From positions 558,001 to 622,000 of the forward strand of contig OZ237764.1 in the NCBI GenBank assembly GCA_965178125.1: a DNA stretch of 64,000 bases. Reading direction: 5' to 3'. This DNA comes from Bilabrum cf. latius. Its lineage: Eukaryota. Positions within the stretch are counted from its first letter, which is position 1, and each line of letters starts with the position of its first letter. The notes below the pieces were generated by a model. That model searched no databases, was not told where the DNA came from, and saw nothing but the letters and a program-made list of their open reading frames with translations. This document shows, one piece after another, positions 1 to 64,000 of this stretch. The translations under genes and the position numbers were made by a program.

Positions 1-3000
1 CGAGAGGATCCGTCCGAGTGGCGAGCGGCAGCCGTTCCAAGCTAGGCGAGCTCTAGGGGCAGGCTCCCCCCTAGAGCCCGGCCCCGAAATCCCCGGGCAA
101 AACCAGAAGACAAGGAAGAGGCGGCGGATTCGTTCGAAGTAGACCGGTCCGGCGCGATGGATCCAGAGGCGGTGGCGGAGACGTCTGGTCTGGACCGCTT
201 CTGGCCCAGCCCATTGGCACCCTTGGCTGCATTCACTTCCTTCTGGATGTAGTCGATCGACAGGAAGGTGCTTTCCAGTGACCTGGACACACTTGGTGTC
301 GGCTTGGAGCTTGCGCCTGCTCTAGATCTAGATCCAGAGGTAGGCTTTGCATCTTTGCGGCTGGTCTTGGAAGACCGAGCCTTGACAGGCTCTCTCGTGG
401 ACTTGACACTCGGGCCGACCTCTGCTTTGCTGCTAGCGAAACCGGCAGACTTGAGGCTGTCATCGGTAGACGACACATGAACACCGCCTGCTGCTGTCCC
501 GTGACCGGCGACAGCCAGGCTGGCAGTTGCTGAGGAGGCGGCCGCTAGCTCGTCGTCAGCGCCGCGCCTGCTTCCCGACGTGCTACCACTATCCGATGTG
601 ACGCACGTGTTTGCGCCATCGCCGAGACGGGCAATGCCTGTCGCTGCCGACAAGGCCGGTACCACTGCAGTCTAGGTTGCTGGAGCGCTCTTCTTTCGGT
701 CGGAAGGTGCGCGCGAAACAGAGTGGCCTGCTTGTGTATCGTTCCTCCCCGTCTTTTTTTGCTTCCCACTCGTTTTCTGCCCTCCAATCAGCGGTGCAAA
801 TGGAATCTCCGCCGCCTGGCGGTCTGGCTGCAACGGCTGGAACTCGGGGGTGGTGGCGGCGATGGCCGCAGCTGCCACCGCGACGGCTTCATTGGCCTTC
901 TTGGCCGAATCGCTCGCGCTAGAACCGCTGGCAGAGGAACCATCGCTTCGTTCGCGCATGGCCCTCTGCAGGATCAAAGAGGCAGACAGCGGACCGCTGG
1001 CATTCGAGCTCGAGGCGGATGCACGAGCCGACCCCCCGCTGTCCCGCTTTCGACTGCTTGCAGCCATTCCACTAGACCTAGCACCCGCACCTACTCTGCT
1101 TCGTGTTGGACTGCCTCTGAGCTCAGAGTGCTTCGAAGGTCTGGCTCTAGGAGTGGCGGAGGCTGGCGTAGCGCGGGCTGTTCCCGGGGAGGACGGTGGC
1201 ACCGGTCGTGACGCAGCCGAGGCGGGGGTACGAGGCCCAGCGACGACCGGCACCGCCCTTGCTCTGGTCATGAGTCCTAGCTACAACTGAGCCTCAAGCC
1301 GTGTCAGCTTGCACTGCCTTGCAGCGTTCAGTGCCATCTGGGAGTGGAGCCCGATCTCGAGTGCGCTTGGCCTGTGCCCGGCTGTGAGGACGATCAGCTC
1401 CTTGAAGTGGAAGATGTAGCTCGATTCGAAGCTGACCGAGTCATTCACGGGACAAGGCTATACGGACTCAGTAGCGGTGGGCAAATCTGCCGAACTTGGC
1501 CGTTCGGCTGCGCTGGAACTCGCCATCGAACCAGCACAAGACGCTCGTCGGTCCCCTTTCCGAGTCCCATTTCTGGCCTTCTGTCTGACCGGACTGCCAG
1601 GAGAACTAGTGTCATCCTCCATGGGCGCCTATCCAGTGCTTTTCCCCAACGTCACTTGACCCTGATTGGTCCGAGTGTACGGGCGGGAAGGGCTTGCTTG
1701 ACTATTTGCGGACTGATCAGATGAGCCTGACTCGTTGGCATGAGCCTGCATCCGCCAGTGCCGGTGCCTAAACAGACCCAAAATCCACCTAATTCCCACC
1801 TCTGACACACCCTACTACCGCAGCCCTCGGGGCTCAAGGAACACGCGACACGGTGCCTCTGGGAGAGACGCTTCAATCCACAGCGCGGTGCCAAACCGAC
1901 CCTTGCTGCCCTCCAGCAGGAACTCGCGCAAGCGATCCCGGGCGGTAGCTGATACCCCAGGCAACGGCTGGATCGCATCGGCTTGACCTGCAGCACGAGA
2001 GGTACCACGGCTTGGAGCTGCATCTGTGTCTTGGCTTGAAGCGGGCGGTCGTCTGTTCTTCTTCTTGCCACCAGCGGGGCGTCGTCGCTTCCGTCCCTGC
2101 ATCGCGACACCCTTAGCTTCGCTTCGTGTAACAGATGCCGAGGCATTGGAGCTTGTGATCCTGGCCGGGCTGTGGCTGGTGCTCGGGATGTGTGCGTTGC
2201 TCGTTTTGTTGGCTGCACTACCCGAGGAGCTGGACACGGCTGCACTGTTGGCTGCACTACCCGAGGAGCTGGACACGGCTGCACTGTTGGCTGCACTACC
2301 CGAGGAGCTGGACACGGCTGCACGCCGGTGGTGTGCCTTGAGTCTCGCCACAACGACACCCGAGCCCATGCTTGAGTCTGACATCGGGTGGGCATCCGTG
2401 TCGGCCACAGAGTCGCTTTCCGCCGTATCGCGCTCTGCAGCTGGCTGCATGGTAGCTGAAAGCTGCTTGGAGGCCCGCTGTTTAGAACCTCTCACGATAG
2501 ATGCCCGGCGACTCGACGACTAGGCCACCTTGCCTTTCCCATCGTTCGCAGTGTCCTCCCAGTCCGAGTCCGACCAATCGTCCGAGTCGTGCAAAAAACC
2601 GATCCGCCTGACCGATTGAGCAACCTACGAGCTGCTGTGCTTCCACGAATTCGCTGACTCTCGTTTCCCAGTGGCACTTGATTTTCTTCTTGCCTTGGCT
2701 TTGCTGTTCTATGGCGCAGGATTGGCGTCCTTCTTGGCCTAGGGACCTTTCGCAGAGTGCAATGGCTTCTCCTTGGCCTACGAGCGTTTCGCAGGCTGCA
2801 GGGGTTTCTGGCTTGCTATCTTGGATAGTACTTTGGCACTCGGCTTGCCACTGGCTGGTGCAGCAGTGCTTTGCACAGTGAGTGATCGCACGGCACGTCT
2901 CTCTGCCCGGCGCCGCCTCCGTTCAGATGACGTCATAGGAGCAGAGCCACCGCCACCGGCATCTTCCCATCGGGCCTCGTCCAGCTACTTGCTAGCAGTC

Positions 3001-4319
3001 GCGGCCGGCACGATGTTAACTATGCCATCCTGCGTGGCACTTGCATTATCCTGTCCGCCTGCGCTAGGGACCCTGCATAGCTGCACGCTTGGCACGCTCA
3101 TCGTGCTTGCACCGCTGCTCGGGGGACTGGAGAGAGGCAAGCCGGCAGCGTTGAAGGAGGCCACAGAGCTGGCACGCGTCGCTCCACTGCTGCGAGCGCC
3201 AACGCTGGGCCGTTTAGCGGCTGCAGAAGCAGCACCAGTACCAGAGGCGGAGGTCGCCGATCCTCTGTGCAACAACGACTTGGGGTTGGTGCGGTTCCGC
3301 TCGTTCAGCTGCCTTGCCTGCTGGCCCATCGTAACTAAATGGCGGATTCTGGCAAAGGTAAGCTGGTCCACTGCGCTACCGCGCGCATCAGAGCTTGATG
3401 GCAACGATGACGAAGATGATGATGGCGATGATGACAGGGCAGGGACGGGGACTTCGGCTGCCGTGGAAGCGATCATGATTTGCACCGCCTGCCTAGGGGA
3501 AATGCGGGCCGATGCCATGACAGCAGCCTGTCGAGGACGCCACCGTCTAGCTCCCTGGGGCTATGACGGCGCGGATGCCTTGGATGCTCGGGGTTGAACG
3601 GGCACCGTCTGCTGGGGGACCGTCTCGGCGGGCCCAGCATCTGGTGGCGGGTCAGTTGAACTCGCGTTGAGAAGCTCAACGCGACGCACCACTTCTGTAT
3701 GACCCTCTACCGTTAGCAGGTGCGATAAATTCGCGCATACGAAAAGCTGGATGTCATTAGCGGCTCCCTGGGCCGCAGGCGATTGTCCTGGCTTCGGCGG
3801 TGAACTCCTCTCTTCCTGCTGCATGAACTCGCGGAGCAGCTCTTGCCAACGGATCTTGCATTCGGAGGATAATCCCTATTCTTGAAGATCCTACCAGTCC
3901 GTGTAGATCGCAAACGATTGCGAGAGGGACCCTCTGCCGCTGAGTCCATTAGGAAACGTGCCTTCCCGAGCGTGAAGCAGGATGGAAGCAAATGCGTCGA
4001 TTCCAGCGAGGCCGTGAGTGATATTGTCGGGACTACCTTCCCTCGGAATTCCATCAGACTCTTTCGGAGGTACCTGCGAAAAGGGAGCCACAGGAGATAT
4101 CACGGTGCACTCGTGGACCGATCCAATCCACTGGAGCCACCAACTGAAAATTAAGCTTACTTTGGCGGCAGCAGACGCGCCTTTATGCGTCGGTAGAGCT
4201 GAGAGACGCACTGGCTGCTTTTTTTCCTGTGAAGATGTACCCAATTTGCAACTTGAGTGCGCATGTGATGGAATCAGCTATTGCTCGCTTTGAAGACACC
4301 CAATGTGAAGTAATACCAT
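1..4319 (-). CDS. Large Ser/Ala/Arg-rich low-complexity hypothetical protein (>1,400 codons, 3' end outside window); requires TAG=sense
   Basis: ORF fragments 3891-4244, 3561-3824, 2985-3518, 1815-2495, 672-1271 and 42-665 share one frame. I found no in-frame TAA/TGA in the gaps. The first ATG after an upstream TGA (4362) is at 4319. Possible in-frame 87-nt intron 4074-4160 (GTAAGC...TTTTCGCAG). No recognisable domain. Confidence 0.7.
2208..2323 (-). repeat. Coding tandem repeat, 39-bp unit x3 (AAVSSSSGSAANS)
   Basis: Three direct copies of ttggctgcactacccgaggagctggacacggctgcac. Confidence 0.9.
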
Positions 4320-4559
4320 CGTTCTCTCACGCGAACCATGTCTTTTTTTCTTCTATTTTAATCACTTCATGCACTTTTTAAATCCTGGGACGCACTAATT
4401 TCGTGTCAGGTTGACTTGAAACACATTTTGCTCGCCGTTGTACAGCACTCATCACACACCGTGCCACAGCGACGGACTTCAAGTTTAGACACAAGTGTTT
4501 GCGCGCCTGCGCGCAGCATAGGCCTGCAGTGCATGACCATCGAATAATCATAATTGCGC

Positions 4560-6794
4560 TCACATCTCCTTGAGCGCGCTGAACTTGGGCCCGTCGGTGT
4601 CGCTCAAGATGCGCGTGGCACCCCACGCCCCGTACCTGCTCCAGTAGCCAGCCAGCGAGAACTGGTGAAGGATGTCAAATACCTCCCCGTAGGTCTTGTA
4701 CCAGTCCAGCATGACCTGGTGCATGCCCTCGTTTGCGTGTGCCAGCAGCACGTTGCTGAGGTCAGTCTTGGTGCCGACCTTCATGCCGGGTCCTGCCTCG
4801 TACGACGTCATCTTGAGACCGAAGGCCTTGCCCACTGCAGCGATGTCCCTCTGGTCCTGGGTCACGTTGTTGGCCGTGAGGCTGTACCCCTTCACGATGT
4901 CATCCACGGATGCCTTGCTGGGCAGGGTCTTGGGGCCAGCAGCGGTCTGGTTGTAGTTGAAGTAGGCAGTGGCAGCGACGCCCCACAGGTACTTTGACGC
5001 AGCCCCCTTGCCGTATGCCGTCTCAAACCAGGTGAGCGTGTCGTTGTAGTGCTGCGGGAAGATGCTCCACTCGGCGTAGATGCCCCTGATCCGGTTGTTG
5101 ATCTCGTTCTCGCCGAAAACCACAGCAAATTCACGCACCGTTTCGTACAGCCTCTGCAGGTGCCTGCGCATGGCTAGCACGTTCTGGTCAGAGCACGGCA
5201 GGGTGCTGTTGGGGTCATTTCTCGAGGGGCAGGGCACGCTGCACATGGGGTCCTTGTTGTCAGTCTGCTTGCACACGTCGAGGGCGTTGAGCTTGTTGTA
5301 CGTGTACTGGGAGAAACCGAAGTTCCAGACCTCGTTGGAGTGCTCAATGTACACGGCCGAGTCCTTGGGCAGCTGGTCATAGAGGAGCTTGGCAGCCTGA
5401 GAGACGTAGGAGCTGCTGTTGCCGCTCCAGCAGCTGCTACCTTGGGGCACCGGCATGCAGGCAGAAGAGGCGCCGACTGGCAGGTTAACCCACACGTCCT
5501 GCCCAAAGGTGCTGGCGTACTTGGCGATCGCGTCCCAGGAGATGCCCCCACCCTGGGGGTTTCCCCTGGGGCTGAAGCTGCGGCTCGAGTCATCGGGGGT
5601 CGTGCGCTGGTACCACTCGATGATGTGGTGACCCGGGTCACCTGCGGGAGTGTAGGTCGCAAGAGTGACGAGTGTAATAGGGTGTGGTGCTGCGAGACAT
5701 TCGATCCATCTGTATTCAGGCCCCATCACTCCATTCAGGCCCCATCACTCTCACCATAGAATCCAGTCTTGTAGTTGGTGTGCAGTGCGCCCATGAACCG
5801 GGCGTGCTTGCATGCCTTGATGCTCTTGATGGCCGCGATGAGGTTGTTAGAGAAGAACTGCCCCGTGCGGATGTCAGCGTCAGCAAACGTGTGGTTCGGG
5901 ACGATGAGGCTGATGTTGCTGATGCCCGAGCCCAGGGGCGCGGTGAGGTTGCGCCTCGTGTCGGTGAAGTTGAGCAGCATCAAGTTCAGCTCGGGGCGCC
6001 ATTTCTCCGAGGGCATGGTGAGGTTGAGGTAGGACCAGTTCGTGTCCTCCTCGTAGGAGAGCTCGCTGAACTGCCAGGCGCAGCCCGCGTTCGGGTCCAC
6101 GATGCAGCTTACGTTGGCGAGTCCCTGGAAGCGCATCTGCCACACGCCAGGGGTCCACTCCCCGATGTGCTGGGGGTCATCCTGCGTGCATGAAACACCC
6201 AAGAAGAAAGAAAACAGCAGGCTGACCCAGGATGTTGTAGCTTGAAAGAAAGGTTGCTGATGGGTGCTCGAATGGGAACAAGCATATCACATGGATGGTT
6301 CTTGAACAAAGAATGTCAATTTCCGTCGCACCGACGATCATGAACTCACCTCAGGAGGTGCCCAGGCAAACGAGGGGCGCATGTCGAATACATCCTGCGA
6401 GTGGTCGCCAGACAAACGAGGTACCACCTTGAAACATTAGGCAGACTTTCCGATATACCACTAGCACAATTCAATTTGATATGATGCGTATCCCTCACTT
6501 GGAAAAAATCTGACATGGGCCAGCCATGCTCGTCCATTGGTGCTACCGCAGACTTGTTCAGAGTTTTCGGCTCGCCCACAGATTTCCACTGGTCTACGAA
6601 TGCCATGTCTCCACCAAACTCCACACCAAGAACTGCAGATCCAAGTGTGTGCTGCGTACACGGACGGAATCAACAGACGTGATGCTGAGCGAGCTGAACC
6701 TTGATGACGCGTAGCACCCAAGCGTACCCGTACCTATCTTTACAGATCTCACGCTTGCACCGGCAAGAAGTACACACGTTAAAAGAGAGCGCAT
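4560..6794 (-). CDS. Secreted protein resembling the bacterial 'cellulose-binding protein' family, putative clan GH-A-like glycoside hydrolase; about 5 exons
   Basis: Signal-like N-terminus MRSLLTCVLLAGAS (ATG 6794). Predicted GT-AG introns: ~6633-6733, from 6498 (acceptor ambiguous), ~6182-6349 and 5642-5754. Motifs AFVDQWK, MDEHGWP, DVWVNLP, VYIEHSNEVWN, SYEAG and SRYGAWG. Ends TGA at 4560. Family call is from remembered motifs, not a search. Confidence 0.7.
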
Positions 6795-7156: not shown

Positions 7157-10100
7157 ATGTCTAAGCCAACTTGGGGAGATGCCGAGTTTGGACCACAAAT
7201 GGCAGGAATGAATATTGCATGGCTTGTTGAAGAGGACATGCAGTGGAGGAACGGCATGGTCGAAGTTTATGCAGCTGACAAAGGTGACAGGGATCCAAGA
7301 GCTGCCCTCAAGCTCCGTAGTGGAAGGGTCGCACAAGAGTGGGACACCCTCGAAACCGCTTCAGAAATATTTGCTATGTATTCAAATCGGTTCAGGCAGT
7401 CGGTGTGGGTAGATGCCGTTTCAGATGTTTGGGCTGCCAGGCTGTCGTCCGAGGTGAAGGTCCTGTCGGCGACATCGTCTGCCGGGACACAAAACTACGT
7501 TGTTCTGGCCGGGCCGCCCGAATTCCAGCCTGTTCTCAGGCCAGGTGATCGACTTCTATTCGGTGAGACAACGCAAGATCCGCCCGAGCAGTCCCGGCGG
7601 TGCGACCACGGACAGGCATTTTTTCAGCGATCGCTTCAGCCATAGCAAGCAACGCCACCACAGCCGCGTCTTGCATCGCGAGAACGACAACGATTCCAAA
7701 GTTATGATTCGTGGTATACTTTGCATCGCAGGAAGTGAACCAGAATCGCTGAACAGGCAGGTTCTCGACGAGCGACGCAAGCAAGAGCAGGCCGCCGCAC
7801 GAGAGCAGAGCAGGCTTGGCAAGAGAAAGCGAAGCGAATCCCTCCCGAATAGTAAAGAACCGAATAAGTTTCGGTCAGAGCGGGATAAATCGAGTCCGGG
7901 GCGTGCATCAGGTGTCGGGGCAATGTCCTCTGTGCTAGCCTCCGAATCAGCCCATGCTGCAGGCAGTCACGATGGGAAAGGGAAAGGCCGCGAGACCGAA
8001 GGAACGAATAATCTCGATGAAATTAGTTCAAATACAGCCGCTGACAAATCCGGGCGGAGCGATCCGGCGGTGCGATCCAAAGCACTCGCCCTCCTCTCGG
8101 GCTCCCCGGCGGTGCGATCCAAAGCACTCGCCCTCCTCTCGGGCTCCCCGGCGGTGCGATCCAAAGCACTCGCCCTCCTCTCGGGCTCCTCGGACGGCCA
8201 CAGCCCGAGCAAGGCACCGGCAGTGCCGACCCGCAAGGAGGTTACTCAGGCTCAGGCGGTCCCGGGGAAACAGGAAGTACAATCTATGCAGATGACCCGC
8301 GCTCTGGCTGGCCAGGAAGCGCGGCCTGCATCGAAGGGCGTGCAATCGCTGCAAGTGGTGCCTCAGTCCGGTCCCGCGCCCTCCTCGTCCTCGTCCTCGT
8401 CCTCGTCCTCCAAGCTTCATACCGTGATCGAGCTGTCTTCTGACTCCGAATCGGGCACTAATTCCGATTCGGAGTCTGAGTCTGATTCGGACGTCGAGAT
8501 TGCCTCCGTACAGCAGACTACCAAGGGTGCGGGCTCGGGATCAGCAGCCGTAGCAGCCTCGTCACTTGCTGCTGCATCGCCAGTCGCGTTAAGGCCTTCG
8601 ATCATGCCGAAAGCATCAGTTGCAATGGACGGAGACGGTCCTAGCATAGGCCCTGTGCACGCCGCAGACATGGCTGCTGGTGGTGGCGCTGGTACTGGTG
8701 CTGGTGCTCTAAATGATGCAGTATATGGACATCATGATGATGGTGAAGATGTCGATGTTGATGCCACCAGTGGCGGTGCATCGAAGGCAAGCAGTCCAGC
8801 CCCCACCAGTGGCGGTGCATCGAAGGCAAGCAGTCCAGCCCCCACCAGTGGCGGTGCATCGAAGGCAAGCAGTCCAGTCCCCACCAGTGGCGGTGCATCG
8901 AAGGCAAGCAGTCCAGCCCCCACCCGTGGCGGTGCACCGACGGGTTCAGTGGACGGCGGCGGCAAGGCGGGTAGTGCTAGCAAGAAACCGCTAGATGGAC
9001 ACATGGCAGCAGCCAAGTTGGTCTCAGTCGGGCACGTCCCAGCCGGTGCCATTCGGTCCGTCCCATCTGCCGCGCAGGTGCCGACATCAGTACGTCCATC
9101 GCCACTCTAGCCTTCGGCATCTGCTGCGGCGCTGTCTCCGGCCACAGCGAGAAAACCTGCAGACAAGGAGTTAATTGCAGCAGGCCAGGCCGTCTCGCCG
9201 GATGGCAGGAGCACGAAAGCAGGGTCGGGCGGCTCGAATGCGCGCAACCATGGCATCGCTGCACACCGTGCTCAATCGGGCGCACGCGGAAAGATGTCAC
9301 GAGGCAGCGCCGAGGACGTTCCCGTAATGGATAGCGATGATGATGAGTACATCGACCCTCGGTGCGGCCCACAGCCCGTAGTTCAGTGCACGATCGAGCG
9401 CTTGTATCGCATGTACATCCCGCACAAACTTGGGAAAACCAAGTCTCCCTCCCGATCGAAAGAGCTGGCAGGTGTGGCAGGAGCGCGCTGGGCGTAGGAT
9501 GAAGACGACGAAGACTACACGATTGGCTCGAAAGCACAGGGGGTATCTTCCCCAAGCAGTAGCGGGGGCATGCGCAAGGGCAGCAATAGCGGCAGACCCG
9601 CCCCCGCACCGGCGTCGAGTAGAGCCGCTCAGGCAGAGACGCCTCGCAGGCAGTCCCCGGGGAGGTCCAAACACAAGGCCTGGAAGAAGCAGGAAGGTAC
9701 GTGGCTGCAAGTCCTCAAGTTGGACGAGGCGCCCGCGGACTCAGTTTGGAGCTCCTCGAATCCAGCGGTGTACTGGCAAAAGGAGCATCAGCTGCCGTGT
9801 CCTTGGATCCCCGTTGCACCTCCTGGGTCCGGAGATGCCGACGACCAGCTTCGGATGCGGATCGCCATGAAGCAGTCCAGTGACGAGTCTGCACTGAGGA
9901 AAGACAAGACTGGTGAAGTGAAGAGGGGCTTTGAAGCGCAGGCAGATGCTCGGAGAAGACGAAGGCGGTCTCTCAGGCTGTTTTTTGAGCGCGGTGTGCC
10001 CAACGTGGCGCCAATGATGACTGTAGTTGGGCCGAACTCAGGCAAGGCCGGTGATGGCAGACATGGCGATGATCGCCCGCCGCCATTCTGTCGCGACGTC

Positions 10101-13100: not shown

Positions 13101-13199
13101 AGCGGGGAAATGGGCATGCGCGGGGTTCCAGACGCGCCCGCTGGCAGCTCTGCGGGCTGGTCCAGCAGCGGACTAGCCGGCAGCGAGATGGAGTTTTGA
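7157..13199 (+). CDS. Large (~1,950 aa) mostly low-complexity hypothetical protein with a globular-looking N-terminus; requires TAG=sense
   Basis: Exon 1 from ATG 7157. Candidate intron 7563-7731 (GTGAGA...CATCGCAG) joins the frame of 7500-9110. Fragments starting 9294, 9570, 10719, 11058, 11895, 12192 and 12540 are in that frame, separated only by TAG. First TGA at 13197-13199. Confidence 0.75.
8064..8188 (+). repeat. Coding tandem repeat, 42-bp unit x3 (PAVRSKALALLSGS)
   Basis: Three direct copies of ccggcggtgcgatccaaagcactcgccctcctctcgggctcc. Confidence 0.9.
8765..8936 (+). repeat. Coding tandem repeat, 39-bp unit x4.4 (PTSGGASKASSPA)
   Basis: Near-identical copies of ccaccagtggcggtgcatcgaaggcaagcagtccagccc. 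Confidence 0.9.
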
Positions 13200-45463: not shown

Positions 45464-45618
45464 AAAACTGACATTGATTTGTACGTTACATCGAATCAGT
45501 TCTAGAACCTCCGGTTAGGGTTGCTAGATAAATGCGAGGGCGCGCTGGGTCCCGGCTCCTCGGGCGGTTGACCACCCGTGGTGCCACAAGGGGACCCGGC
45601 TGCTGGTGCAGCCTGCGC
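45464..45618 (-). repeat. Split direct repeat B2 (3' terminus of element), 155 bp
   Basis: Matches 46343-46497 with one substitution (gggaccc vs gggatcc). Confidence 0.95.
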
Positions 45619-46497: not shown

Positions 46498-46572
46498 CGT
46501 ACTGACCCGCAGATTTGGCCACCTGTGGCCACTGCGGCTTGCCGCCCTACGCATACTGACCTGTGGGTCACG

Positions 46573-51646: not shown

Positions 51647-51686
<40 letters not shown>

Positions 51687-52876
51687 GCTGCCCCTGACGA
51701 TGCTCCCGCAGGGTTCATCAGTGTTGACGTGAGTTCCCTCACGGCCATTTTACCGATTTCCTTCATGAGCTCCTCGTCCTTTGGCAGAATCGACTGGAAC
51801 AGGTCATCCACCTTACCAGCTAGAAATATTCCTATCTTCTAGTCCGGGAGAACGTCGGCGAGCGTCTTTAAGATCCGAGCCGTGCGTTGGCGCCCGTCCC
51901 CCGTCTTGCACTCCTCACGCATGGCATCCAGCCGCGGAACCCACCATGCGACAATGGCGTTAGCACGATGTAGAACATCACCTGCTGCGCTCCACGCCGC
52001 CTTCTCCTGCGTGATGAACTGGGTCGCCGCGTCGTCGGTCGTGGGCCAAGCTGTTGGCGGGAGCTTCTGGACCTGCTCGACCTCGTCAGCCTCTGCATCG
52101 ACGTCATCGGGGTCCTCTCCAGGAGCTTCCCCATCTGCATCGTCTTGTTCTTCTCCCAGGGCCTGTGTCGCGTTTTGTTCGTTTACCACGGCTGCGATCG
52201 CCTTCGCAAGCACGTGGTCCGGGTAGCTGTCCTGCTATTCCAACTTCTCAGTCGTAAGTCGCCACCCCCAATTAGAGGCGAAACGTGTCATTGACAGCAG
52301 AGATGTCCGTTTGGCCGCTCGCAGCGGACCATACGCGGACTGCAACACTGCTGCAGCTCGTAGTAGTTGATGTAGGAGCCCACCGCCCGCAGACGTTGTG
52401 AGGACCGCAAACCATCCAGCTGCACCTGTTGACAGCTGCGCTCCTTCCTAAGCAGGGAAGTTACGCTTGCAGTCGTGCAAAACTCGTTTCAGCTCCTCCT
52501 TGGTAGGACGATGAGGTAATTTCACGTACAGTGAAATCACCCATGCCGTGGCCGTCATCAGGACTGCCCGTTTCTTCTGGTTGTCGTCCATTCCCACCGA
52601 CAGTAAGGTCTTAAAGTCATTACCCAGACCGTTTGCTGTTGCCGTGTCCATTGGTTTGTCGCCCGCTGCTTGGTTGCTGATAGCCTCGATGAACCCAGCA
52701 TGACCTCCGGCGCCCATTGCTGTTTCCATCCATGCTTCCCAGGATTCACCAACGCAATTATCCAGAATATTTGCGGATTCTTGCTTTGCGATAGCAATCA
52801 ATGCCTTGTGCGGCTAGGAACCTTGAAGATGCGATAGAGCCGCTGCAGCCTGTGTGCCCTGCTCCACCTGGGCCAT
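50306..52876 (-). CDS. ORF1 (Gag-like by position, ~856 aa) of the retrotransposon
   Basis: ATG 52876 lies 30 nt after repeat A1. Fragments 52448, 51839, 51596, 50759 and 50474 are in frame with TAG breaks only. Basic Lys/Arg/His-rich C-terminal segment. Ends TAA 50306-50308. No zinc knuckle recognised. Confidence 0.8.
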
Positions 52877-52906
52877 ATTTCACAGTGAAGTCACGCGCAC
52901 TTTTCC

Positions 52907-53080
52907 GAAAACTTTTTGCAAGCCGACTCAGAACTACAATATCCTGTAGTACGTGTCTTATTGAGCTCGGCCGAGACCACTGTACTCGGCGTACCCTCGG
53001 GAAGATGAGTCGAGCTTCACGCAAATCAATCCCAGTTTCTACAGTTCCGGTCTTACTGGTTGTAACCCCAGACCTGCTAA
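52907..53080 (-). repeat. Split direct repeat A1 (5' terminus of element), 174 bp
   Basis: Identical by eye to 46170-46343. Confidence 0.95.
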
Positions 53081-54785
53081 GTTCCAGCACAAAGACCGCC
53101 CCACTGCGTTGGCCAGCTGCTGATGTAAATCCCGGGGCGCCAACGGCAAGCTGCATGGCGCACGTGCTGTTGCACGGCCCTGCACGCACGTCAGCAGATT
53201 CCACCAGCCCAAGTGCGGCACCAAACTCGGTGTCATGCTCAACAGACGCTGACAGCCCAAAGAATCCCAGCGAGCCGTGCTCGAGTACATCGTACCGCCT
53301 AACCGACAGGCCTCCAGTGGCCAGCCGAACCAGAGCCACCCCGCCCTTCGGGATGCTTGATGCTGAAGAGGGCTCGTGACCCGGGGCACCAATGGCCAGG
53401 GCGGTGACGATAGCCGTTGCATGTCCATTACTTCGACTGTATCCCGCTAATGAAGCTCCGAACTTTGCACCGTTCCCACCAACAATGCCCACATCTGCGC
53501 CATGTGTTCCCCCGATCGCAGCCATAGATGTTGCACTGGCATCGCCGGTACCACTGGTGAGCACGATCCATACCTGATTGTCCTCTGCCTGCGAGATCGC
53601 CATGTCTTCAGTGCCCGACCCGTCGACGTCTCCGATGTTTGCAATCGCGTTGCCGAGCTGGGCGTCGTTGCCGATGCCGTTGAAGTCGTTGCCCTGGGCC
53701 CCCCTCGCCCACAGCCGGTACCAGGTTGGCGCGGCGAGTGCAGCCGAGCACGACTCGGTAGTGGTGCTGGGTTGGGGATATGTTGACGTGCTGCCTGTTG
53801 ATACGGCGAGCTGTCGCTGCGGCCCGGGTGCAGCGATTTGTTGGAGGGCCAGGGCACTGGCACCTGCATCACGATGTGCCAGTGCCAGCCCTGTCGCGGC
53901 GGCAGCCGGCCGAGCTGGTTTCCCCGCGACGGCACTGGATCTACCCCTGCTGTTGGTCGCGTGCATTGATCTGGTTTTCCTGTGACTGCACATGTCAAAC
54001 CTTAAATCACCGTCCATTTCCACGAGAGGCAAGTACAGCTGCAGCACAGCTGCACCTCTCTGTGTTTCGCAGAGCTGCGGGGGCGACACTTTGGCCTGAG
54101 CCTGCTTCTCAGCACGTTGGATGCATGTTTTATCCTCGGTACATCCACCCGCAGCCAAATCTGATCTGGCATTGTCTCGACTACTGCCCAGATGGCTGCC
54201 TGACCTGGCATTGCTGTGCTATCTGATTGGGGACAGCCAATCGAACATCTGCGCAGCTAAGCCCGCATTATCCCGACTACAGCTGAACTAAATGTAAATT
54301 ATTAGCTCAATAATGTTATTCTGGACTGCGGGAACAAATGATAGCCCGGCAGCAGGCCGAATTACGGCGTCAACTGCAAGCTACCCAGCATGCACCTGCG
54401 CCGATGTCCTGCCAAAAAGGGACAGCTCCCCAGAGTCGGAGAATTTAAATAAGTCTATGGTCAGCGAAGAGTCCTCATAAGTCCAAGCTGACGATGTTGC
54501 AACAGATGAAATGCCCCCGCAATGCTCGTGCTAGCCTCCAACAACCCGTACATCGCGAGTGTGCTTGAAAGTGAATTCTCTCTCTGATGCAGAACCCGTT
54601 CGATTGGAGTACCCTAATTCGTACTACCAAGCGGCGCGCAATAATCTGATGACGGGCTTCCGGTTGCTCTCGAAGTGAACGTGAGCTGTGTCACTCCGGC
54701 TCAGCAAATCTTCAATTTTTGAGCTACACGATCGAATGGAAGCCGCAACATACGCAATCTGTAAAAGTGCAAAGGCAGCATACAT
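53080..54785 (-). pseudogene. 5' part of FG-GAP/integrin-alpha-like receptor B (intact allele would be ~2,084 aa)
   Basis: Probable ATG 54785 with signal-like MYAAFALLQIAYVAAS. N-terminal domain aligns with gene A. Motifs IGDVDGSGTEDMAI, FGASLA and LAIGAPG. The frame runs into the element after AVFVLEL and stops at TAA 52758. Confidence 0.78.
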
Positions 54786-54902
54786 CGCTTTACTCCCCTC
54801 TGTCGCAGTTGTGCAGAGAGAATATAAGCAAGGAGATCTGTTGATTGCATTCATCTTTGAAATATGCTTGGTCGCACAGTAGAGATTCCGGCACTGTATC
54901 AA

Positions 54903-56064
54903 CTAAGAAACACAATCACCGTGTGCCCCCGCCCTTGCTGCTTCCAGCACGTCCATATCCATACCATCCACCACCCCGGTTACCCAAGCTCCACCAGCCA
55001 ACTTGCCAAGCCTCAGCCGCTTCTCCAGCTCCATGGGCCTCCCCTCCCTCGCGGCCTGAAACACCATCGAGGCATCCCTGTGCGCTTCATGTGCCCGCCG
55101 CCACCGCACCAGCTGGTCCCCCCGTCTGGGATCCAGGTGCTTCACACGAGCCAGCTCCCCTGCGGGCACTAGCTCAAAAAGCTTGCCCAGCACCTCCCGG
55201 GGCCTGGCTCCCCGCTTGCTGCTGTACAGAGCTTTAGGCACCGGCAAATGCTCCGTCATGCTCCCGTACGACATGAACGACTGCGTTTCCCTGCATGCCA
55301 CATCCAGCCACGTCGCACCGGTCTCGCTGTCTAGCCCTTGTTGGTACACCCTTGACCCCCAGTGTAGGAGGATCGCGAGAGAGGCAGATGATTCCTCATC
55401 GCACGCTTGCCGTGCAGCATTCAATACTACCGCTTGCGGCTTGCGATCAAGCAAGCATCTCAAAATCTCTTCATGCGTTACAGACTACCAACCTGTATCC
55501 AGGGTACCGGCTCGACACATATACTCGAGGGATTGCAGCGCGCTTTGGCGAATGAAGCTCAAAACCAGTGTCACTTGTTTCTGCGTGATATCCTTCATTG
55601 GGAGCTCTCAATCAGTCACTCACTGTACTTTCACCATTCAAGGCAGGACACTAGCACGACATGATGCACGGGGTAGACTTCTTGCTCACACATCGCAATC
55701 TTGCAGACTTGGACAGAGCTCGCTACAGCACTGCAGGGCGATCGAACGCTCCAAGTGCATCGGTTATACCCAAATACTGCGTGAAAGGCAGACACTCTGT
55801 GTTGAAATGAACCATGGCGACGATGTGCTTTGCCTGTCTTGACTAGAGTTGCATCGTGCTCACCCTGTGGAGCTCGCCATCGAATCTTGAGCTCCTGGGC
55901 CAATGTGTCCTGCATAGCTTCTCTTCATACGTATCGAATAATGCAATGGCGAGGGCATCATTGCGATCATTCAAGGCTTGAAGAAAGCGCCTTTTCAATG
56001 CTGCCCACTCCCTGCAACCAATAAAACTGAAGATTGTAGCAGAAATCCCAATCAGGAAACACAC
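54903..56064 (-). CDS. Hypothetical helical/ankyrin-like protein, copy 1 (5' exon structure unresolved; no stop at its expected end)
   Basis: Last exon encodes GATWLDVAC, FQAAREGR and LEAARAGAHGDCVS (ankyrin-like). Upstream ORF 55843-56064 is in another frame, so an intron is presumed. Confidence 0.45.
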
Positions 56065-56385: not shown

Positions 56386-57534
56386 TCAGAATCCCACACC
56401 AGCTATCGACCCGCCCTCCACGCCCTCCACAAACGCACACAAATCAAAACAACTAGGCACCACACCACCAGACCCTCCCGCACCAGCCTTGTAACCAGCC
56501 TATGCGATGGATGCCCCACCAGCCCCGCCATCACCAGCCCCGCCATCACCAGCCCCGCCCCCCAGCACGAACTTCACCTGCCGAGGCACGTCCAGCACGA
56601 CCACCCGCACCGAATCATCACCGTCCTCGTCCCGCACCCAGGCCTTGTCGCACGCCATCCGCACCTCGTCCGCAGCCGTGTCGTCCTCGGGCCCCGCCAA
56701 GAAGAAGCGCGTCTGCCCCTCCGCCCCCCTCGTCACGTCGAACCGCCCACTGGCCACCTCCTCCAGCGCAGAGCGGAGTTTCTCCGATTTCTCCGCGTCC
56801 GTCAGCCTGTCCGCAAGCACCACCACGCAGCGGGTGCTGTTCAGCGCGCTGCCCGCACTCCGCAGCGGCGCCACTGGAGCCAGCCACGGGAACTGCGCGG
56901 CGCCCGTCTCTGGTTCCGCAGCGATGGACTTGGCGTTGTGGTGCACCATCCGGCCCGTGGGCGCGTGGATGATGGTGAGCTGCGGAATCTTCTGCACCCT
57001 GCACGCCAGAGCCAGTTGCTGGCTCACGGCCCCAGCACCCGGCCCCGCTTCACCGCCGTCTGCGTCAAACCGCAGCATGGGGAAGGGCATGGTCCCGGCG
57101 TACTCCTCCGTCTGGCCCCTGTCCGTGTCCGCCGACACGAAGATCACCTCGGACCCGGGCCGGATCGGCTCGTCGGACTTGCTCTCCTCCTCCTCCTTGG
57201 CTTCCTGCTCGGCCCCTGACGCTGCCCCGGCTCCAGAGGCGGCTCCAGCCTCGGCATCGGCCGGCGACGCAGCCTTCTTCGGTGCGGAACCGGCGCCGCG
57301 CGATCCGATCGTTACGATCGCGGGGTACATGCCCGCCAGCCTGGGAGTGAAGGTCTTGCACGGCTTGCAGAAGGCAGCGCTGAAGTACAGAGCCACGTAC
57401 TCGCTGCGAGCGCACACCTCCTGTAGCGTCTCTTCTCTCCCGTCCTTGTGCTGGATGACGGCGTCTTTGCGGCGAGCGATCTGGGCGAAGGTGGGCCGGC
57501 TGCAGGGGAAGTTCAGTCCGGCGGGATCATCCAT
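56386..57534 (-). CDS. Nucleoredoxin/tryparedoxin-like thioredoxin-fold protein, copy 1
   Basis: YVALYFSAAFCKPCKTFTPRL, EVIFVSAD, MPF, KIPQLTII and FPW. Reading through TAG 56500 gives the same GGSIAGVGF-TGA end as copy 2. Confidence 0.85.
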
Positions 57535-57698
57535 GACTTCGGTGCGTTCCGTTTTGCTTCAGCCTCTTGTTTTGCCTTTTGCCAATCACGCGACTGTTGC
57601 GTTCGATTCATGGAGATTCTTGTTTATTCTAGAAACTGCATCGGATTGGCCAGCGTGTACTTCAGGGCTCGAGCTGAAGCCAAATCTTGTGCGGCTCC

Positions 57699-60029
57699 AT
57701 GCAAACGGTACTGGTAAAGATGGCGGCTGTTGCTGCATTCTTGCTAGTGATGCTAGTGGTCGCTCCTGCAGCTGTGGCCGAAGAGCAAGGAGATTCGTTG
57801 ATGCTGCGGCATGATACAATGGTACAGCGGCCTGTTGGTATTTCGAAAGCCGCCAGGAACTTCATGAAGAGGGAGCAAAAGAGACGATCTGGCTAGAAAG
57901 GGAGGCGCAAGCAGGAAACCTAGCCTTCGGGCGGTCAATCGAGTAAGATCCCAGCCCAAGGTAGCACAGTCCATTCAGTGCTGAAAGTCGGCATGATTTA
58001 TGCATGGCCGCAGACCTTATCGGTTGAGGTAAGTGGCAAACTAGAGCACATCGACATGGGTGTCAAGGTCGGCATGACCAGCGATCGTTTCGAGCTTGAC
58101 AAGCTCGATCCGGACAGCCTGGTCCTAGCCACCCAAGTCGGATTCGGTGCAGAGGCAGCACAGGCTGCCGGCAGTGCGTCATTCAAGCCATACATCACTC
58201 AGGTATCGTCCAAAGATCCGCCGATTGCCGCTGTGGCCGGAAGCTCGGGTCCCAGCGTCGATTCATAGGGCGCTGGGAGCAAGGCCCAGTCTGGCTAGCC
58301 TTCCGGTGCTGTTGATTCTGCGAGTCAATCCGGCACGTTAAAATCTTCATCCTCTTCCGGTGCTTCGCGCGAGCCGACGTCCACCAGCTCCAGCGCTTGT
58401 GCTTAGAAGCCAGCCGCTGGGTTGGAGTTCCCATCCGATGGCACCGGCGCAGTGGGCTCTGGTGCTGGATAGGACAAGGCTTCGACGGCAACTGGAGGGG
58501 CAGCCACCGCGGCCCATAGTGAGCATACCTTGCCTGCCGGTGCATCTGTCGGTCCCTCAGTGCCCATGAGCGGGGCATCGGCGAGTGCTTCCTACCAGCA
58601 GTCCCCAGGTGGTGCCAAGGATCGACAGAAGATCTGGAGCGGCTTCCTCGAACTGAGCCACAGGGTTCTATCGCGCGCTCTGGACACGCTTGCGAGTGGG
58701 AATCCCGCCATCCTCAACTTCTGGCGTGAGGAAGTGCAGGGGGACGAGGGATCAGTCGTGTCATCCGATGGCTCGTCCACGGGGTCATCGCCACACAAGA
58801 AGCCGAGGCAAGAAGACCTCGCCGGGGACGGTTCGGATGGTGAGGACGGTGACCATGACCAGCAAGCCAGTGGTGGCGCGGCTTCCAAAGCAGGGGTGCC
58901 CGAAGCCGGCTACCCGCTCAGGATGGTGATGCCGCCCGTCGACGCGGACCAGCTCATCAGTTCACTCACGAGGATCACCAAGATGTCCACTCTGCTCGTG
59001 AGCATGGACCACTTCTTCGCAGCGCATGTCCTGGTAGATGCAGGGCAACGTGCCGGGTCTGCATTGGCGATCCCTGAGCCACTTGATGCGGGCAAGGTGG
59101 AGGAGTCATCCAAGGTTGCCCTGGACAGTGCCAGCGATGTGCTTGCCAAGGCTCGTACCAGCGATTCGTTGGATGTAGTGCAGCGATTCTTGTCGCGGTT
59201 CCCAGACTCGGATGGGGAGACGCATAGCGGACCAGCAAGGTCGGCCGAGCCCAGCGGGAGCATGGCAATGGCATCCGGGCCGGCGTCAGGGTCTGGTGCA
59301 GCAGAACTAGACCCATCGTCTGGCGCGAAGCGTCCTCGCACGATTGCAGTGCGTGGTGGCAAGGTCGAGCATCCAGCCGGGCAGCCGATGCACTACTCGC
59401 ATGGCGCGCAGACTGTGGAGAAGATAGCCCACCTGAACCTGCAAGCATTCGGGCTGGTGAAGCTGGGCTCCCTTGCTGGCACGACTGAGACATTCATACC
59501 TCTGGTACATGTCACTTCTGGGATGACGACTGCCGACCTGAGATCACGTATCACGACTGCAATTGATGCCGTGAAAGATGACGCGAAAGTGTTTGCAGTT
59601 CTGCTGGACCATGATTCGTTCTCAAAGATTATGCGTGAGGTGTACGCATTCAAGCAGAAGCTGGCCCCTGGTTGGCGCGCCGGAGGGATCGATCGTTCCA
59701 AGCTGAACCAAGACTACATTGCCCATTTGCGCGCTGCACTGACCGAAGCCATGGAGACCTGCCAATGGGTGGCTCTTTTGGATTCTTTGGTGGACGTGGG
59801 CGAGATCGCGATTCGCCTGGCGGAGCTGGGTGTTGTCGTGAACATGCGACCAGCAGAGGGCCAAGAATGGCTCAAGACCTTCACGCCGTCCAAATTGCAA
59901 GACTTCAACGAGATGGACTTGACTCCAGCACCCGATGAAGACGAAATAGCGATTGAGGCTGTGACATGGGCAGGCCCAATTCACTATGCGCACCACATGC
60001 TCCTGCTTAGAGACTGCCCGATGAATTGA
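57699..60029 (+). CDS. Hypothetical protein, copy 1 (start uncertain, 57699-57993); requires TAG=sense
   Basis: 57687-57896, 57978-58268 and 58530-60029 are in one frame with only TAG breaks. Ends TGA. No domain recognised. Confidence 0.65.
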
Positions 60030-62722: not shown

Positions 62723-62945
62723 GACTTTGGTGTGTTCCGTTTTGCTTCAGCCTCTTGTTTTGCCTTTCAGCTTCTGAGGTCGGCAGGGCTCAGGCGGGTC
62801 CAATCACATATGAACGAAGACCCTTTTGCCAATCACGCGACTGTTGCGTTCGATTCATGGAGATTCTGGTTTATTCTAGAAACTGCATCGGATTGGCCAG
62901 CGTGTACTTCAGGGCTCAAGCTGAAGCCAAATCTGGTGCGGCTCC

Positions 62946-64000
62946 ATGCAAACGGTACTGGTAAAGATGGCGGCTGTTGCTGCATTCTTGCTAGTGATGC
63001 TAGTGGTCGCTCCTGCAGCTGTGGCCGAAGAGCAAGGAGATTCGTTGATGCTGCGGCATGATACCATGGTACAGCGGCCTGTTGGTATTCCGAAAGCCGC
63101 CAGGAACTTCTAAAAGAGGGAGCAAAAGAGACGAGCTGGCTAGAAAGGGAGGCGCAAGCAAGGAACCTAGCCTTCGGGCGGTCAATCGAGTAAGATCTCA
63201 GCCCAAGGTAGCACAGTCCATTCAGTGCTGAAAGTCGGCATGATTTATGCATGGCCGCAGACCTTATCGATTGAGGTAAGTGGCAAACTAGAGCACATCG
63301 ACATGGGTGTCAAGGTTGGCATGACCAGCGATCGTTTCGAGCTTGACAAGCTCGATCCGGACAGCCTGGTCCTAGCCACTCAAGTCGGATTCGGTGCAGA
63401 GGCAGCACAGGCTGCCGGCAGTGCGTCATTCAAGCCATACATCACTCAGGTATCGTCCAAAGATCCGCCGATTGCCGCTGTGGCCGGAAGCTCGGGTCTC
63501 AGCGTCGATTCATAGGGCGCTGGGAGCAAGGCCCAGTCTGGCTAGCCTTCCGGTGCTGTTGATTCTGCGGGTCAATCCGGCACGTTAAAATCTTCATCCT
63601 CTTCCGGTGCTTCGCGCGAGCCGACGTCCACCAGCTCCAGCGCTTGTGCTTAGAAGCCAGCCGCTGGAGCGGAGTTCCCATCCGATGGCACCGGCGCAGT
63701 GGGCTCTGGTGCTGGATAGGACAAGGCTTCGACGGCAACTGGAGGGGCAGCCACCGCGGCCCATAGTGAGCATACCTTGCCTGCCGGTGCATCTGTCGGT
63801 CCCTCAGTGCCCATGAGCGGGGCATCGGCGAGTGCTTCCTACCAGCAGTCCCCAGGTGGTGCCAAGGATGGACAGAAGATCTGGAGCGGCTTCCTCGAAC
63901 TGAGCCACAGGGTTCTATCGCGCGCTCTGGGCACGCTTGCGAGTGGGAATCCCGCCATCCTTAACTTCTGGCGCGAGGAAGTGCAGGGGGACGAGGGATC
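62946..64000 (+). CDS. Hypothetical protein, copy 2 (partial; in-frame TAA at 63111 if the upstream start is used)
   Basis: Near-identical to 57699-58753; runs off the window end. Confidence 0.5.

What the first reader, a model, noticed from the sequence alone, without database searches (positions are those of the whole stretch)
1..64000. Non-standard nuclear genetic code: UAG is a sense codon, most likely glutamine
Seen: in most genes on both strands, ORF fragments lie in one frame and are broken only by TAG. For example, 18 of 18 breaks in the 13.4-kb exon 13680-27112 are TAG. Four lines point to Gln. (i) Receptor A has GSM-CAA-FV (36118-36120) where paralog B has GSM-TAG-FV (43342-43344). 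(ii) A has QVSSG-Q-VALD where B has QVHAG-TAG-LAVD (54381-54383). (iii) Cys repeats read C-TAG-PCP (17433) and C-TAG-SC (~16842), like CQPCP. (iv) There is a TAG-CAG-CAG-CAA run at 49802-49813. Two TAGs (SV*LL*VACG) are conserved in both paralogs. Established: UAG=Gln corresponds to NCBI table 15, and most eukaryotic reassignments change UAA and UAG together. Inference: genome-wide reassignment in this lineage; whether it is already described depends on the organism, which I cannot identify.
Basis: partly seen in the sequence, partly recalled or inferred. Interest (0 to 1): 0.95.

Follow-up and report, generated by a model that had tools for sequence, protein, structure and literature searches.

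The report
UAG read as glutamine, nuclear genes
In this GC-rich eukaryotic DNA the usual stop codon TAG sits inside nearly every long gene and is almost certainly read as glutamine, a rare but already known kind of genetic-code change in an organism that could not be named here.

Summary
Reading TAG as sense raises the longest ORF from 640 to 4491 codons; 50 shuffles reach at most 643. The coding frames of 11 ORFs or exons hold 129 TAG, 0 TAA and 0 TGA in 16,142 codons. Contigs of three runs carry the GT..AG splice at 27112/27274, and one 12,250-base contig covers most of the giant exon without a difference, so the TAGs are most simply present in mRNA.

Glutamine is the best reading. In metagenome relatives (53-77% identical GH-like gene), in-frame TAG falls on 9 alignable columns and this window has Gln at 6 of them. 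A column score against 42 remote homologues gives Q +6.5 bits, E +2.4, all others below 0. Inside the window, paralogues pair TAG with CAA or CAG, and a 71%-identical relative has Q at one TAG. Ser and Leu, both known UAG meanings, fit poorly.

TGA ends all 9 cellular genes. TAA is never in frame in them and closes only two retroelement ORFs, so UAG-only (table 15) and rare-UAA (table 6) codes are not separated. The taxon is unknown, and a known ulvophyte lineage is not excluded.

The parts
13680..27112 (-). Exon 2 of a giant secreted or membrane protein (beta-helix repeats, Cys-rich ephrin-receptor-like repeats, C-terminal membrane-spanning part). It has 32 in-frame TAG, no TAA or TGA, and the terminator is TGA at 13680-13682.
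   Evidence: A 12,250-base contig of run X5 covers 13357-25606 with 0 differences.
27113..27273 (-). GT..AG intron of 161 bases between exon 1 and exon 2 of the giant gene.
   Evidence: Joint 27112/27274 in contigs of X5, X7 and X8. A contig of X6 runs through it unspliced. Sequence read.
27274..27595 (-). Coding part of exon 1: ATG at 27595-27593 followed by a hydrophobic signal-peptide-like start.
   Evidence: Sequence read. The phase fits exon 2.
7458..13199 (+). Low-complexity protein ORF of 1913 codons with 16 in-frame TAG; it ends in TGA.
28261..32838 (+). Kinase-like plus armadillo-repeat protein with 16 TAG in the ORF (15 after the first ATG); it ends in TGA. The TAG-TAG pair at 30523-30528 aligns with Q-then-end of relative P0059.
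   Evidence: X5 contigs cover 28397-32891 without differences, in three pieces with gaps at 29142-29156 and 29832-29878.
32956..40779 (-). Receptor paralogue A (FG-GAP repeats, Ser-rich stalk, one membrane span) with 24 TAG; it ends in TGA. CAA 36118-36120 and CAG 40333-40335 lie opposite TAGs of paralogue B.
40915..45495 (-). 3' part of receptor paralogue B with 9 TAG, including 43342-43344; it ends in TGA.
52758..55607 (-). 5' part of receptor paralogue B with 7 TAG, including 54381-54383.
46573..52879 (-). DIRS-like retroelement (reverse transcriptase plus tyrosine recombinase) lying between the two parts of paralogue B. It has 17 in-frame TAG: 16 in the 1777-codon frame and 1 in the recombinase ORF. 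An in-frame TAA at 50303-50305 sits between two long ORFs, and the recombinase ORF ends in TAA at 46573-46575.
3..4361 (-). Low-complexity protein ORF that runs off the window start, with 18 TAG (17 after the first ATG).
4560..6639 (-). GH-like gene of four exons (6639-6508, 6409-6350, 6184-5750, 5642-4563) with GTGAG-type introns and no TAG; it ends in TGA. It is the anchor for the orthologue test.
56386..57558 (-). Thioredoxin-like gene with 1 TAG (56500-56502), which is TCG in the tandem copy; it ends in TGA.
57678..60029 (+). Protein of 783 codons and no known family with 6 TAG, all kept in the tandem copy at 62822-64000; it ends in TGA.

Best explanation
This is nuclear DNA of a GC-rich eukaryote whose translation system reads UAG as an ordinary sense codon for glutamine. 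UAG makes up about 19% of Gln codons. UGA ends every cellular gene seen, and UAA is kept out of coding frames.

Shown here: UAG lies in frame in real, conserved and most simply transcribed genes. It behaves as Gln in orthologue and homologue columns. Close relatives in environmental metagenomes share the trait.

Inferred from established knowledge of such codes (PMC5304391, PMC11687900): a tRNA-Gln with anticodon CUA reads UAG but not UAA, and eRF1 has lost recognition of UAG. New TAG codons arise freely from CAG by C-to-T change.
For: 1. ORFs. The longest ORF is 4491 codons with TAG as sense, against 640 under the standard code; the maximum of 50 shuffles is 643.

2. Frame census. There are 129 TAG, 0 TAA and 0 TGA in 16,142 coding-frame codons. 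The other two frames of the same stretches hold 159/153 TAG, 66/68 TAA and 262/343 TGA. After the first ATG the counts are 127 TAG, 367 CAG, 160 CAA and 0 TAA in 15,433 codons.

3. Transcripts. Contigs of X5, X7 and X8 (two studies) join 27112 to 27274 across a GT..AG intron, while an X6 contig runs through it. X5 holds 13357-25606 in one contig with 0 differences.

4. Relatives. Six metagenome contigs encode the GH-like protein at 53-77% identity, and within the aligned coding parts of L001/L002 and L006 TAG is the only in-frame stop-type codon (the TGA/TAA hits in L006 lie in its intron). Over 9 distinct aligned columns this window has Q at 6, and D, T and E at the others. In 42 remote homologues Q is the majority residue at 3 of the 9 TAG columns of L001 and L006 (24 of 40, 18 of 42, 15 of 42). 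The summed column score is Q +6.5 bits, E +2.4, T -0.7, K -4.3, and all others -8.1 or lower. Control sets of 9 known positions return the true residue for Q in 241 of 300 draws, S 252 of 300 and L 278 of 300.

5. Within the window. TAG pairs with CAA (16 of 16 flanks identical) and with CAG between the receptor paralogues. S-Q-R-Q-T-Q occurs twice in the giant protein, with TAG and CAA swapped and different Ser, Arg and Thr codons. Relative P0059 (71% identical) has Q opposite TAG 30523-30525 and then ends.

6. Leu is excluded by the armadillo columns. Masked-Leu controls gave a hydrophobic top in 5 of 5 runs, whereas the TAG columns gave polar residues and L was not in the top 10.

7. The Ser context model fits TAG worse (D -52) than any of the six Ser codons (-29 to +64).
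Against: Direct evidence for this organism's own TAGs is thin. Ten aligned sites give Q 3, S 2, N 2, H 1, E 1 and T 1, and the BLOSUM62 sums I added by hand put N close to Q if the SQRQTQ pair is left out.

In the armadillo column test Q ranks only 8th, 0.99 units below K, and that test cannot separate polar residues. One recent duplicate shows TAG against TCG (Ser) and another TAG against GGG.

The strongest Gln evidence comes from relatives, not from this genome. One relative group (L003-L005) has a frameshift and an in-frame TAA, so its TAGs may be decay.

The runs are labelled only 'RNA?', and X5 'probably DNA'. If they are DNA, the joined form is a DNA variant and the claim about mRNA falls. 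No tRNA gene, eRF1 or peptide could be examined.
Confidence: 0.88

Rival explanations
1. Both UAA and UAG mean glutamine and UGA is the only terminator (NCBI table 6, as in dasycladalean, cladophoralean and trentepohlialean green algae). UAA would simply be very rare in this GC-rich genome. The code would then be an already described one.
For: All 9 cellular genes in the window and all 12 relatives' ORFs and GH-like gene ends listed stop at TGA; none stops at TAA. The retroelement has an in-frame TAA that would fuse ORFs of 857 and 919 codons into 1777. The ulvophyte paper reports TGA as the only stop and TAG much commoner than TAA (PMC2984419, Results section read). Introns are of GTGAG..CAG type. 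A relative's GH38 sits nearest to Streptophyta-labelled Atlas clusters, a weak lead.
Against: There are 0 TAA against 127 TAG in 15,433 cellular codons, while CAA is 30% of CAA+CAG. The same ratio would give about 54 TAA. TGA makes up about 80% of TAA+TGA in non-coding frames, so I reckon nine TGA ends have a chance of about 0.13 by composition alone. TAA also ends the recombinase ORF about 25 residues after its catalytic-Tyr region, as a stop would.
Confidence: 0.22
2. UAG means serine, as reported for the green-algal order Scotinosphaerales, where TAA and TGA stay stops.
For: TAG lies opposite AGC in paralogue A (11 of 16 flanks identical) and opposite TCG in the tandem thioredoxin copy. A few TAGs sit in Ser runs. 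The precedent is PMC8271138 (passages read).
Against: The column score for S is -8.7 bits or lower over the relatives' 9 TAG columns, against +6.5 for Q. No column is Ser-dominant. TAG is absent from the long Ser-rich tracts of both receptors. The Ser context model fits TAG worse than any Ser codon does. TAG density correlates negatively with Ser density.
Confidence: 0.03
3. UAG means another residue: glutamate, lysine or leucine, all of which are precedented for UAG or UAA in other protists.
For: E is second in the column score at +2.4 bits. K and R top the weak armadillo test. One armadillo TAG (residue 1264) falls on a Leu-dominant column, 37 of 67.
Against: Q beats E by about 4 bits and K by about 11. 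L is excluded by the masked controls, 5 of 5. In 6 of 9 orthologous columns the residue is Q itself.
Confidence: 0.05
4. UAG is ambiguous. It is read as Gln inside genes but still terminates near true 3' ends, as in Condylostoma or Blastocrithidia.
For: Two genes have a TAG within 12 codons of the TGA: residue 1514 of 1525 and residue 1522 of 1526. Relative P0052 ends one residue before the former TAG.
Against: At the observed TAG density I reckon two such cases among seven genes are not unusual (roughly p 0.1). The GH-like gene ends at the same TGA in this window and in L001. No gene end at TAG is shown.
Confidence: 0.08
5. The TAGs are not translated: the genes are pseudogenes, or the codons are edited or spliced out.
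For: None beyond the presence of stop-type codons. Paralogue B is split by a retroelement.
Against: Only TAG occurs in frame, never TAA or TGA, in 16,142 codons. TAGs are conserved between 43%-identical paralogues. Contigs that carry the splice hold the TAGs unchanged. The same pattern is seen in independent relatives.
Confidence: 0.01

Closest known systems
UAG-only reassignment to Gln: Iotanema spirale (Fornicata) and the ciliates Hartmannula sinica and Trochilia petrani; NCBI table 15
   Same: UAG is sense and reads as Gln, while UAA is not used as a sense codon. A CUA-anticodon tRNA is the expected mechanism (PMC5304391 passages; PMC11687900 abstract and introduction read).
   Different: In those lineages UAA is the preferred terminator, and in Iotanema UAG is about 8% of Gln codons. 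Here every cellular gene seen ends in TGA and UAG is about 19% of Gln codons. This DNA is 59% GC with very long, intron-poor genes. A relative contig encodes an oxygen-dependent PhyH dioxygenase, which fits an anaerobic gut flagellate poorly. That ciliate genomes are AT-rich is recalled, not tested.
UAR=Gln code of ulvophycean green algae (Dasycladales, Cladophorales with Blastophysa, Trentepohliales); NCBI table 6
   Same: Gln meaning, TGA as the only terminator seen, TAG much commoner than TAA, and a GC-biased codon choice (PMC2984419, Results read). The intron signals and a weak Atlas lead are compatible with a green alga.
   Different: No TAA at all in 15,433 cellular codons, where about 54 would be expected from the CAA/CAG ratio. 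No plastid-related or alga-specific gene was seen, and the taxon was not established.
Scotinosphaerales: TAG=Ser
   Same: TAG alone is reassigned in a (possibly) green-algal setting (PMC8271138 passages).
   Different: The columns here say Gln, not Ser. That study reports TAA as a terminator of actin, EF-1alpha and histone H3.
Rhizarian exLh and uncultivated phyllopharyngean ciliates: UAG=Leu
   Same: UAG alone is reassigned.
   Different: Leu is excluded by the masked controls and the column scores.

Membership tests
UAG=Gln with UAA and UGA as stops (table 15 type) | In-frame UAG in genuine protein-coding genes | tested here: met
   129 TAG, 0 TAA and 0 TGA in 16,142 coding-frame codons. The genes carry Pfam domains and have homologues.
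UAG=Gln with UAA and UGA as stops (table 15 type) | The UAGs are present in mature mRNA (not edited, not spliced out) | tested here: met
   Contigs with the 27112/27274 splice exist in three runs, and a 12,250-base contig has 0 differences. Caveat: the runs are only guessed to be RNA.
UAG=Gln with UAA and UGA as stops (table 15 type) | UAG columns enriched for Gln in conserved alignments | tested here: met
   Relatives: Q +6.5 bits over 9 columns, and this window has Q at 6 of 9 orthologous columns. Own TAGs: Q at 3 of 10 aligned sites, plus the SQRQTQ pair.
UAG=Gln with UAA and UGA as stops (table 15 type) | UAA is not a sense codon | tested here: met
   0 TAA in 15,433 cellular codons, against about 54 expected from the CAA/CAG ratio.
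UAG=Gln with UAA and UGA as stops (table 15 type) | UAA is used as a terminator | tested here: inconclusive
   0 of 9 cellular genes end in TAA. Only two retroelement ORFs do.
UAG=Gln with UAA and UGA as stops (table 15 type) | tRNA-Gln(CUA) gene and an altered eRF1 N-domain | not testable with these tools
   No genome is held. There is no tRNA in the window or in L001-L006.
UAR=Gln (table 6 type) | UAA also at Gln positions in coding frames | tested here: not met
   None in cellular genes. The only in-frame TAAs are in the retroelement (50303-50305) and in a frameshifted relative copy, at a Tyr column.
UAR=Gln (table 6 type) | UGA is the sole terminator | tested here: inconclusive
   9 of 9 genes here and all 12 relatives' ORFs and GH-like gene ends listed end in TGA, but composition alone predicts about 80% TGA.
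UAG=Ser (Scotinosphaerales type) | UAG at conserved Ser columns | tested here: not met
   S scores -8.7 bits or lower, and no column is Ser-dominant.
UAG=Leu (exLh or phyllopharyngean type) | UAG at conserved Leu or hydrophobic columns | tested here: not met
   1 of 12 armadillo columns is Leu-dominant. Masked-Leu controls behave differently in 5 of 5 runs.
Context-dependent stop/sense codes | The same codon also terminates at true gene ends | not tested
   This needs many conserved gene ends or ribosome profiling. Only hints are available.

The most novel reading that the evidence does not exclude
This could be an undescribed, aerobic, GC-rich eukaryotic lineage, with at least three diverged relatives in environmental metagenomes, that has split the meanings of UAG and UAA in an unusual way. 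UAG would be a common Gln codon, UGA the working terminator of cellular genes, and UAA neither sense nor terminator in cellular genes, surviving only at ORF ends of a retroelement. That would make UAA a nearly unassigned codon, a state expected as an intermediate on the way from a table-15 to a table-6 code.
Probability: 0.25. Interest if true: 0.75.

Novelty: new member of a known kind. Interest (0 to 1): 0.55.

Why it matters
Nuclear codes in which UAG and UAA differ are few: Iotanema, a rhizarian, Scotinosphaerales and some ciliates. They bear on how release-factor specificity and suppressor tRNAs co-evolve.

A lineage with abundant UAG=Gln, TGA-only gene ends and no in-frame UAA would be a useful test case for stepwise models of UAR reassignment.

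There is also a practical cost. Standard-code gene callers cut this organism's proteins into fragments. The relatives in the protein collections appear only as pieces of 55-206 residues, so annotation and homology searches of this genome and of related metagenome contigs need the right table.

Tried and rejected
- No tRNA and no Rfam family was found in the window, and no tRNA in L001-L006.
- The look-up of sequencing runs: no RNA holder listed. In read laying, the stretches 27658-28396 and 32892-32913 had little or no cover in X5, X7 and X8. This is noted only here, as an uncovered part proves nothing.
- The search for homologous proteins gave one weak hit with the armadillo region and none with the retroelement polymerase. 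The same tool on the GH-like protein gave homologues at 39% identity or less and no organism.
- The first metagenome scan, with the armadillo C-terminus, found no relative.
- The Atlas search on the GH-like protein returned bacteria-labelled clusters without a family.
- A naive-Bayes neighbour classifier recovered 12 of 59 codons and was dropped.
- A second context classifier is weak for Gln (64 of 200 right). It voted V 145, Q 32, I 16, E 5, F 1, L 1 and S 0 for TAG.
- Wild-card k-mer matching was swamped by Ser runs from a few sites.
- Self-profiles of the armadillo and beta-helix repeats aligned too few repeats to be useful.
- The window-density test gave only r 0.13-0.21 for Gln.
- The PDB match of the reverse transcriptase did not cover its TAG sites.
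- No synteny beyond the GH-like gene was found between the window and L001-L006.
- No TGTAA or AATAAA signal was seen near the contig ends at 13345-13357 and 32891.
- Six paper searches for a matching published case found none other than the lineages listed under Closest known systems; two more concerned Amoeboaphelidium only. Supplements were closed, so per-taxon TAA/TAG counts for ulvophytes were not seen.
- Structure and complex prediction were not used, because they would not bear on the question.

Full report
**What is in the window**

The window is 59% G+C. Under the standard code its longest ORF is 640 codons. If TAG alone is read as sense, ORFs of 4491, 2607, 1913, 1526, 1525 and 1453 codons appear on both strands. 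Reading TAA as sense changes nothing, and reading TGA as sense gives at most 1042. Fifty dinucleotide-preserving shuffles gave a longest TAG-sense ORF of 390 on average and 643 at most.

In the coding frame of 11 ORFs or exons there are 129 TAG, 0 TAA and 0 TGA in 16,142 codons. The other two frames of the same stretches hold 159/153 TAG, 66/68 TAA and 262/343 TGA. Counting only from the first in-frame ATG, there are 127 TAG, 367 CAG, 160 CAA and 0 TAA in 15,433 codons. If TAG is Gln, it makes up 19% of Gln codons.

The one error is that the giant exon has 32 TAGs, not 18.

**The genes are real and eukaryotic**

- The 4491-codon frame has beta-helix, ephrin-receptor-like and DUF7630 matches.
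- A kinase-like plus armadillo protein, two FG-GAP receptor paralogues and a thioredoxin-like gene are also present.
- A DIRS-like retroelement, with reverse transcriptase and tyrosine recombinase, lies between the two halves of paralogue B.
- A GH-like gene at 4563-6639 aligns to homologues in four exons, separated by GTGAG..CAG introns of 98-165 bases. It contains no TAG.

**Transcript evidence**

I laid the contigs of four public runs on 13200-33000. X5, X7 and X8 (two studies) each have a contig joining 27112 to 27274. The skipped 161 bases begin with GT and end with AG on the minus strand. An X6 contig (19656-27633) runs through them. The junction links an upstream exon, which has an ATG at 27595-27593 and a signal-peptide-like start, in phase with the giant exon.

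One X5 contig of 12,250 bases covers 13357-25606 with no difference, and no run showed any other letter. The simplest reading is spliced mRNA that keeps its UAGs.

There is a caveat. The runs are only guessed to be RNA, and the tool marks X5 'probably DNA'. If that is right, the joined form would be a DNA variant.

**Which amino acid: candidates**

The literature holds three precedents for a UAG-only change:
- Gln in Iotanema and two ciliates;
- Leu in a rhizarian and in uncultivated ciliates;
- Ser in the green-algal Scotinosphaerales.

(Sources: PMC5304391 passages; PMC11687900 abstract and introduction; PMC8271138 passages.) I therefore did not take Gln for granted.

**Which amino acid: evidence inside the window**

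Between the receptor paralogues, sites with usable flanks pair TAG as follows:
- CAA, with 16 of 16 flanks identical;
- CAG, 5 of 16;
- AGC (Ser), 11 of 16;
- CAT (His), 6 of 16;
- GAG and AAC, 6 of 16 each.

Two TAGs are conserved in both paralogues. In the 94-98% identical tandem duplication, 7 TAGs are kept, one is TCG in the other copy and one is GGG. The giant protein has S-Q-R-Q-T-Q twice, with TAG and CAA swapped at two positions and with different Ser, Arg and Thr codons. This looks like conservation at the peptide level.

These data favour Gln but are thin.

**Which amino acid: the tests that did not separate polar residues**

Context statistics reject Ser and fit Gln, but they have little power among other residues.

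A column test on the armadillo domain used 125 remote homologues. It shows that TAG sits at polar positions. Masked-Leu controls gave hydrophobic tops in 5 of 5 runs, whereas for TAG the order was K, R, T, S, W, H, E, Q, with L outside the top ten. This excludes Leu but does not single out Gln, which ranks 8th.

**Which amino acid: relatives decide it**

The exhaustive protein search returned three short fragments of close relatives: P0052 (71% identical), P0059 (71%) and P0053 (53%), from Logan and ENA assemblies. P0059 reads ...LLVIVQ and ends where this window has AIV-TAG-TAG. That puts Q opposite one TAG and, by inference, a TAG-type stop opposite the next. At residue 1445, P0052 has T and P0053 has N.

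A second metagenome scan with the GH-like alignment then found six contigs at 53-77% identity. Their GH-like genes carry in-frame TAG; the other in-frame stop-type codons are one TAA in L003-L005 and TGA/TAA inside the L006 intron:
- L001/L002 at columns 82, 153 and 163, where this window has Q, Q and Q;
- L006 at columns 30, 197, 204, 264 and 359, where this window has Q, Q, T, Q and E, plus one TAG opposite a gap;
- L003-L005 at columns 30, 82 and 247, where this window has Q, Q and D.

Over 9 distinct aligned columns this window has Gln at 6.

Against 42 remote homologues, Q is the majority residue at three of the nine TAG columns of L001 and L006 (24 of 40, 18 of 42, 15 of 42). The summed log-odds are Q +6.5 bits, E +2.4, T -0.7 and K -4.3, with every other residue at -8.1 or lower. 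Random sets of nine known positions return the true residue in 241 of 300 draws for Q, 252 of 300 for S and 278 of 300 for L.

L003-L005 also carry a one-base deletion and an in-frame TAA at a Tyr column, so that copy may be decaying. It was left out of the score. Other ORFs on L005 and L006 likewise need TAG as sense and end in TGA: PhyH and GH38 mannosidase, plus ORFs without a Pfam match.

**Terminators and UAA**

All nine cellular genes whose end lies in the window stop at TGA. So do all 12 relatives' ORFs and GH-like gene ends listed. By composition alone TGA is about 80% of TAA+TGA, so this is suggestive, not proof.

TAA is never in frame in cellular genes. If it were an ordinary Gln codon, about 54 would be expected from the CAA/CAG ratio.

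TAA does occur at two places in the retroelement. It lies between two long in-frame ORFs at 50303-50305, and it ends the recombinase ORF at 46573-46575. UAA is therefore most likely a little-used stop.

A table-6 code with a very rare UAA, as described for ulvophycean algae (TGA the only stop, TAG much commoner than TAA; PMC2984419 Results), cannot be excluded.

**Who is it?**

The taxon could not be established. There is no rRNA and no held genome, and run and organism names were coded. GTGAG-type introns and Streptophyta-labelled nearest Atlas clusters for a relative's mannosidase are weak leads to the green lineage. An oxygen-dependent PhyH on a relative contig argues against an anaerobic fornicate. 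Eight paper searches found no description matching a GC-rich non-ciliate with UAG-only Gln other than Iotanema. Supplements were closed.

**Verdict**

The kind of change is known. Whether this lineage is a new instance, and whether UAA is a stop, unassigned or a rare Gln codon, remains open. It needs the whole genome: tRNA genes, eRF1, a terminator census and a phylogenetic placement.

Noticed in passing
window 45496-52757, with ORFs at 46573-52879 (-): A DIRS-like retroelement (RT plus tyrosine recombinase) sits between the two halves of receptor paralogue B, whose halves both stay open. It is unclear whether the element lies in an intron or has recently broken the gene. The element itself carries 17 in-frame TAGs, so it is adapted to the host code.
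   Followed up: partly
window 54925-58753 and 60097-64000: A tandem duplication of about 3.8 kb at 94-98% identity. It includes the 5' end of paralogue B, the thioredoxin-like gene and the start of the 783-codon gene. The second copy of the last gene has TAA where the first has ATG (57864).
   Followed up: partly
window 4563-6639 (-): The GH-like gene has no TAG in about 560 codons although it has some 20 Gln codons. Its orthologues in relatives carry 3-6 TAGs. Many of its remote homologues are bacterial or unnamed, and no Pfam family matches.
   Followed up: partly
L003, L004, L005 (for example L005 6324-7402): Three contigs with different contig-name prefixes share the same one-base deletion and an in-frame TAA (at a Tyr column) in the GH-like gene. 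This is either a fixed pseudogene or something odd about frame and UAA in that relative.
   Followed up: partly
window 32836-32958: Two convergent genes end 118 bases apart (TGA 32836-32838 and TGA 32956-32958). The contigs of X5 stop at 32891 and start again at 32914, which suggests very short 3' UTRs. No TGTAA or AATAAA signal was seen.
   Followed up: no
window 25077-25094 and 20169-20186 (-): The hexapeptide S-Q-R-Q-T-Q occurs twice in the giant protein with different codons throughout. It may be a short functional motif.
   Followed up: no
window 36400-36900 and 43400-44700 (-): Long Ser/Pro/Thr-rich repeat stalks in both receptors are evolving by unit duplication (81-94% internal DNA identity). 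They hold no TAG at all.
   Followed up: no
L006 7494-10340 (-): A 949-codon conserved-looking protein without a Pfam match lies on the relative contig and has two in-frame TAGs. It could serve as a further test gene.
   Followed up: no
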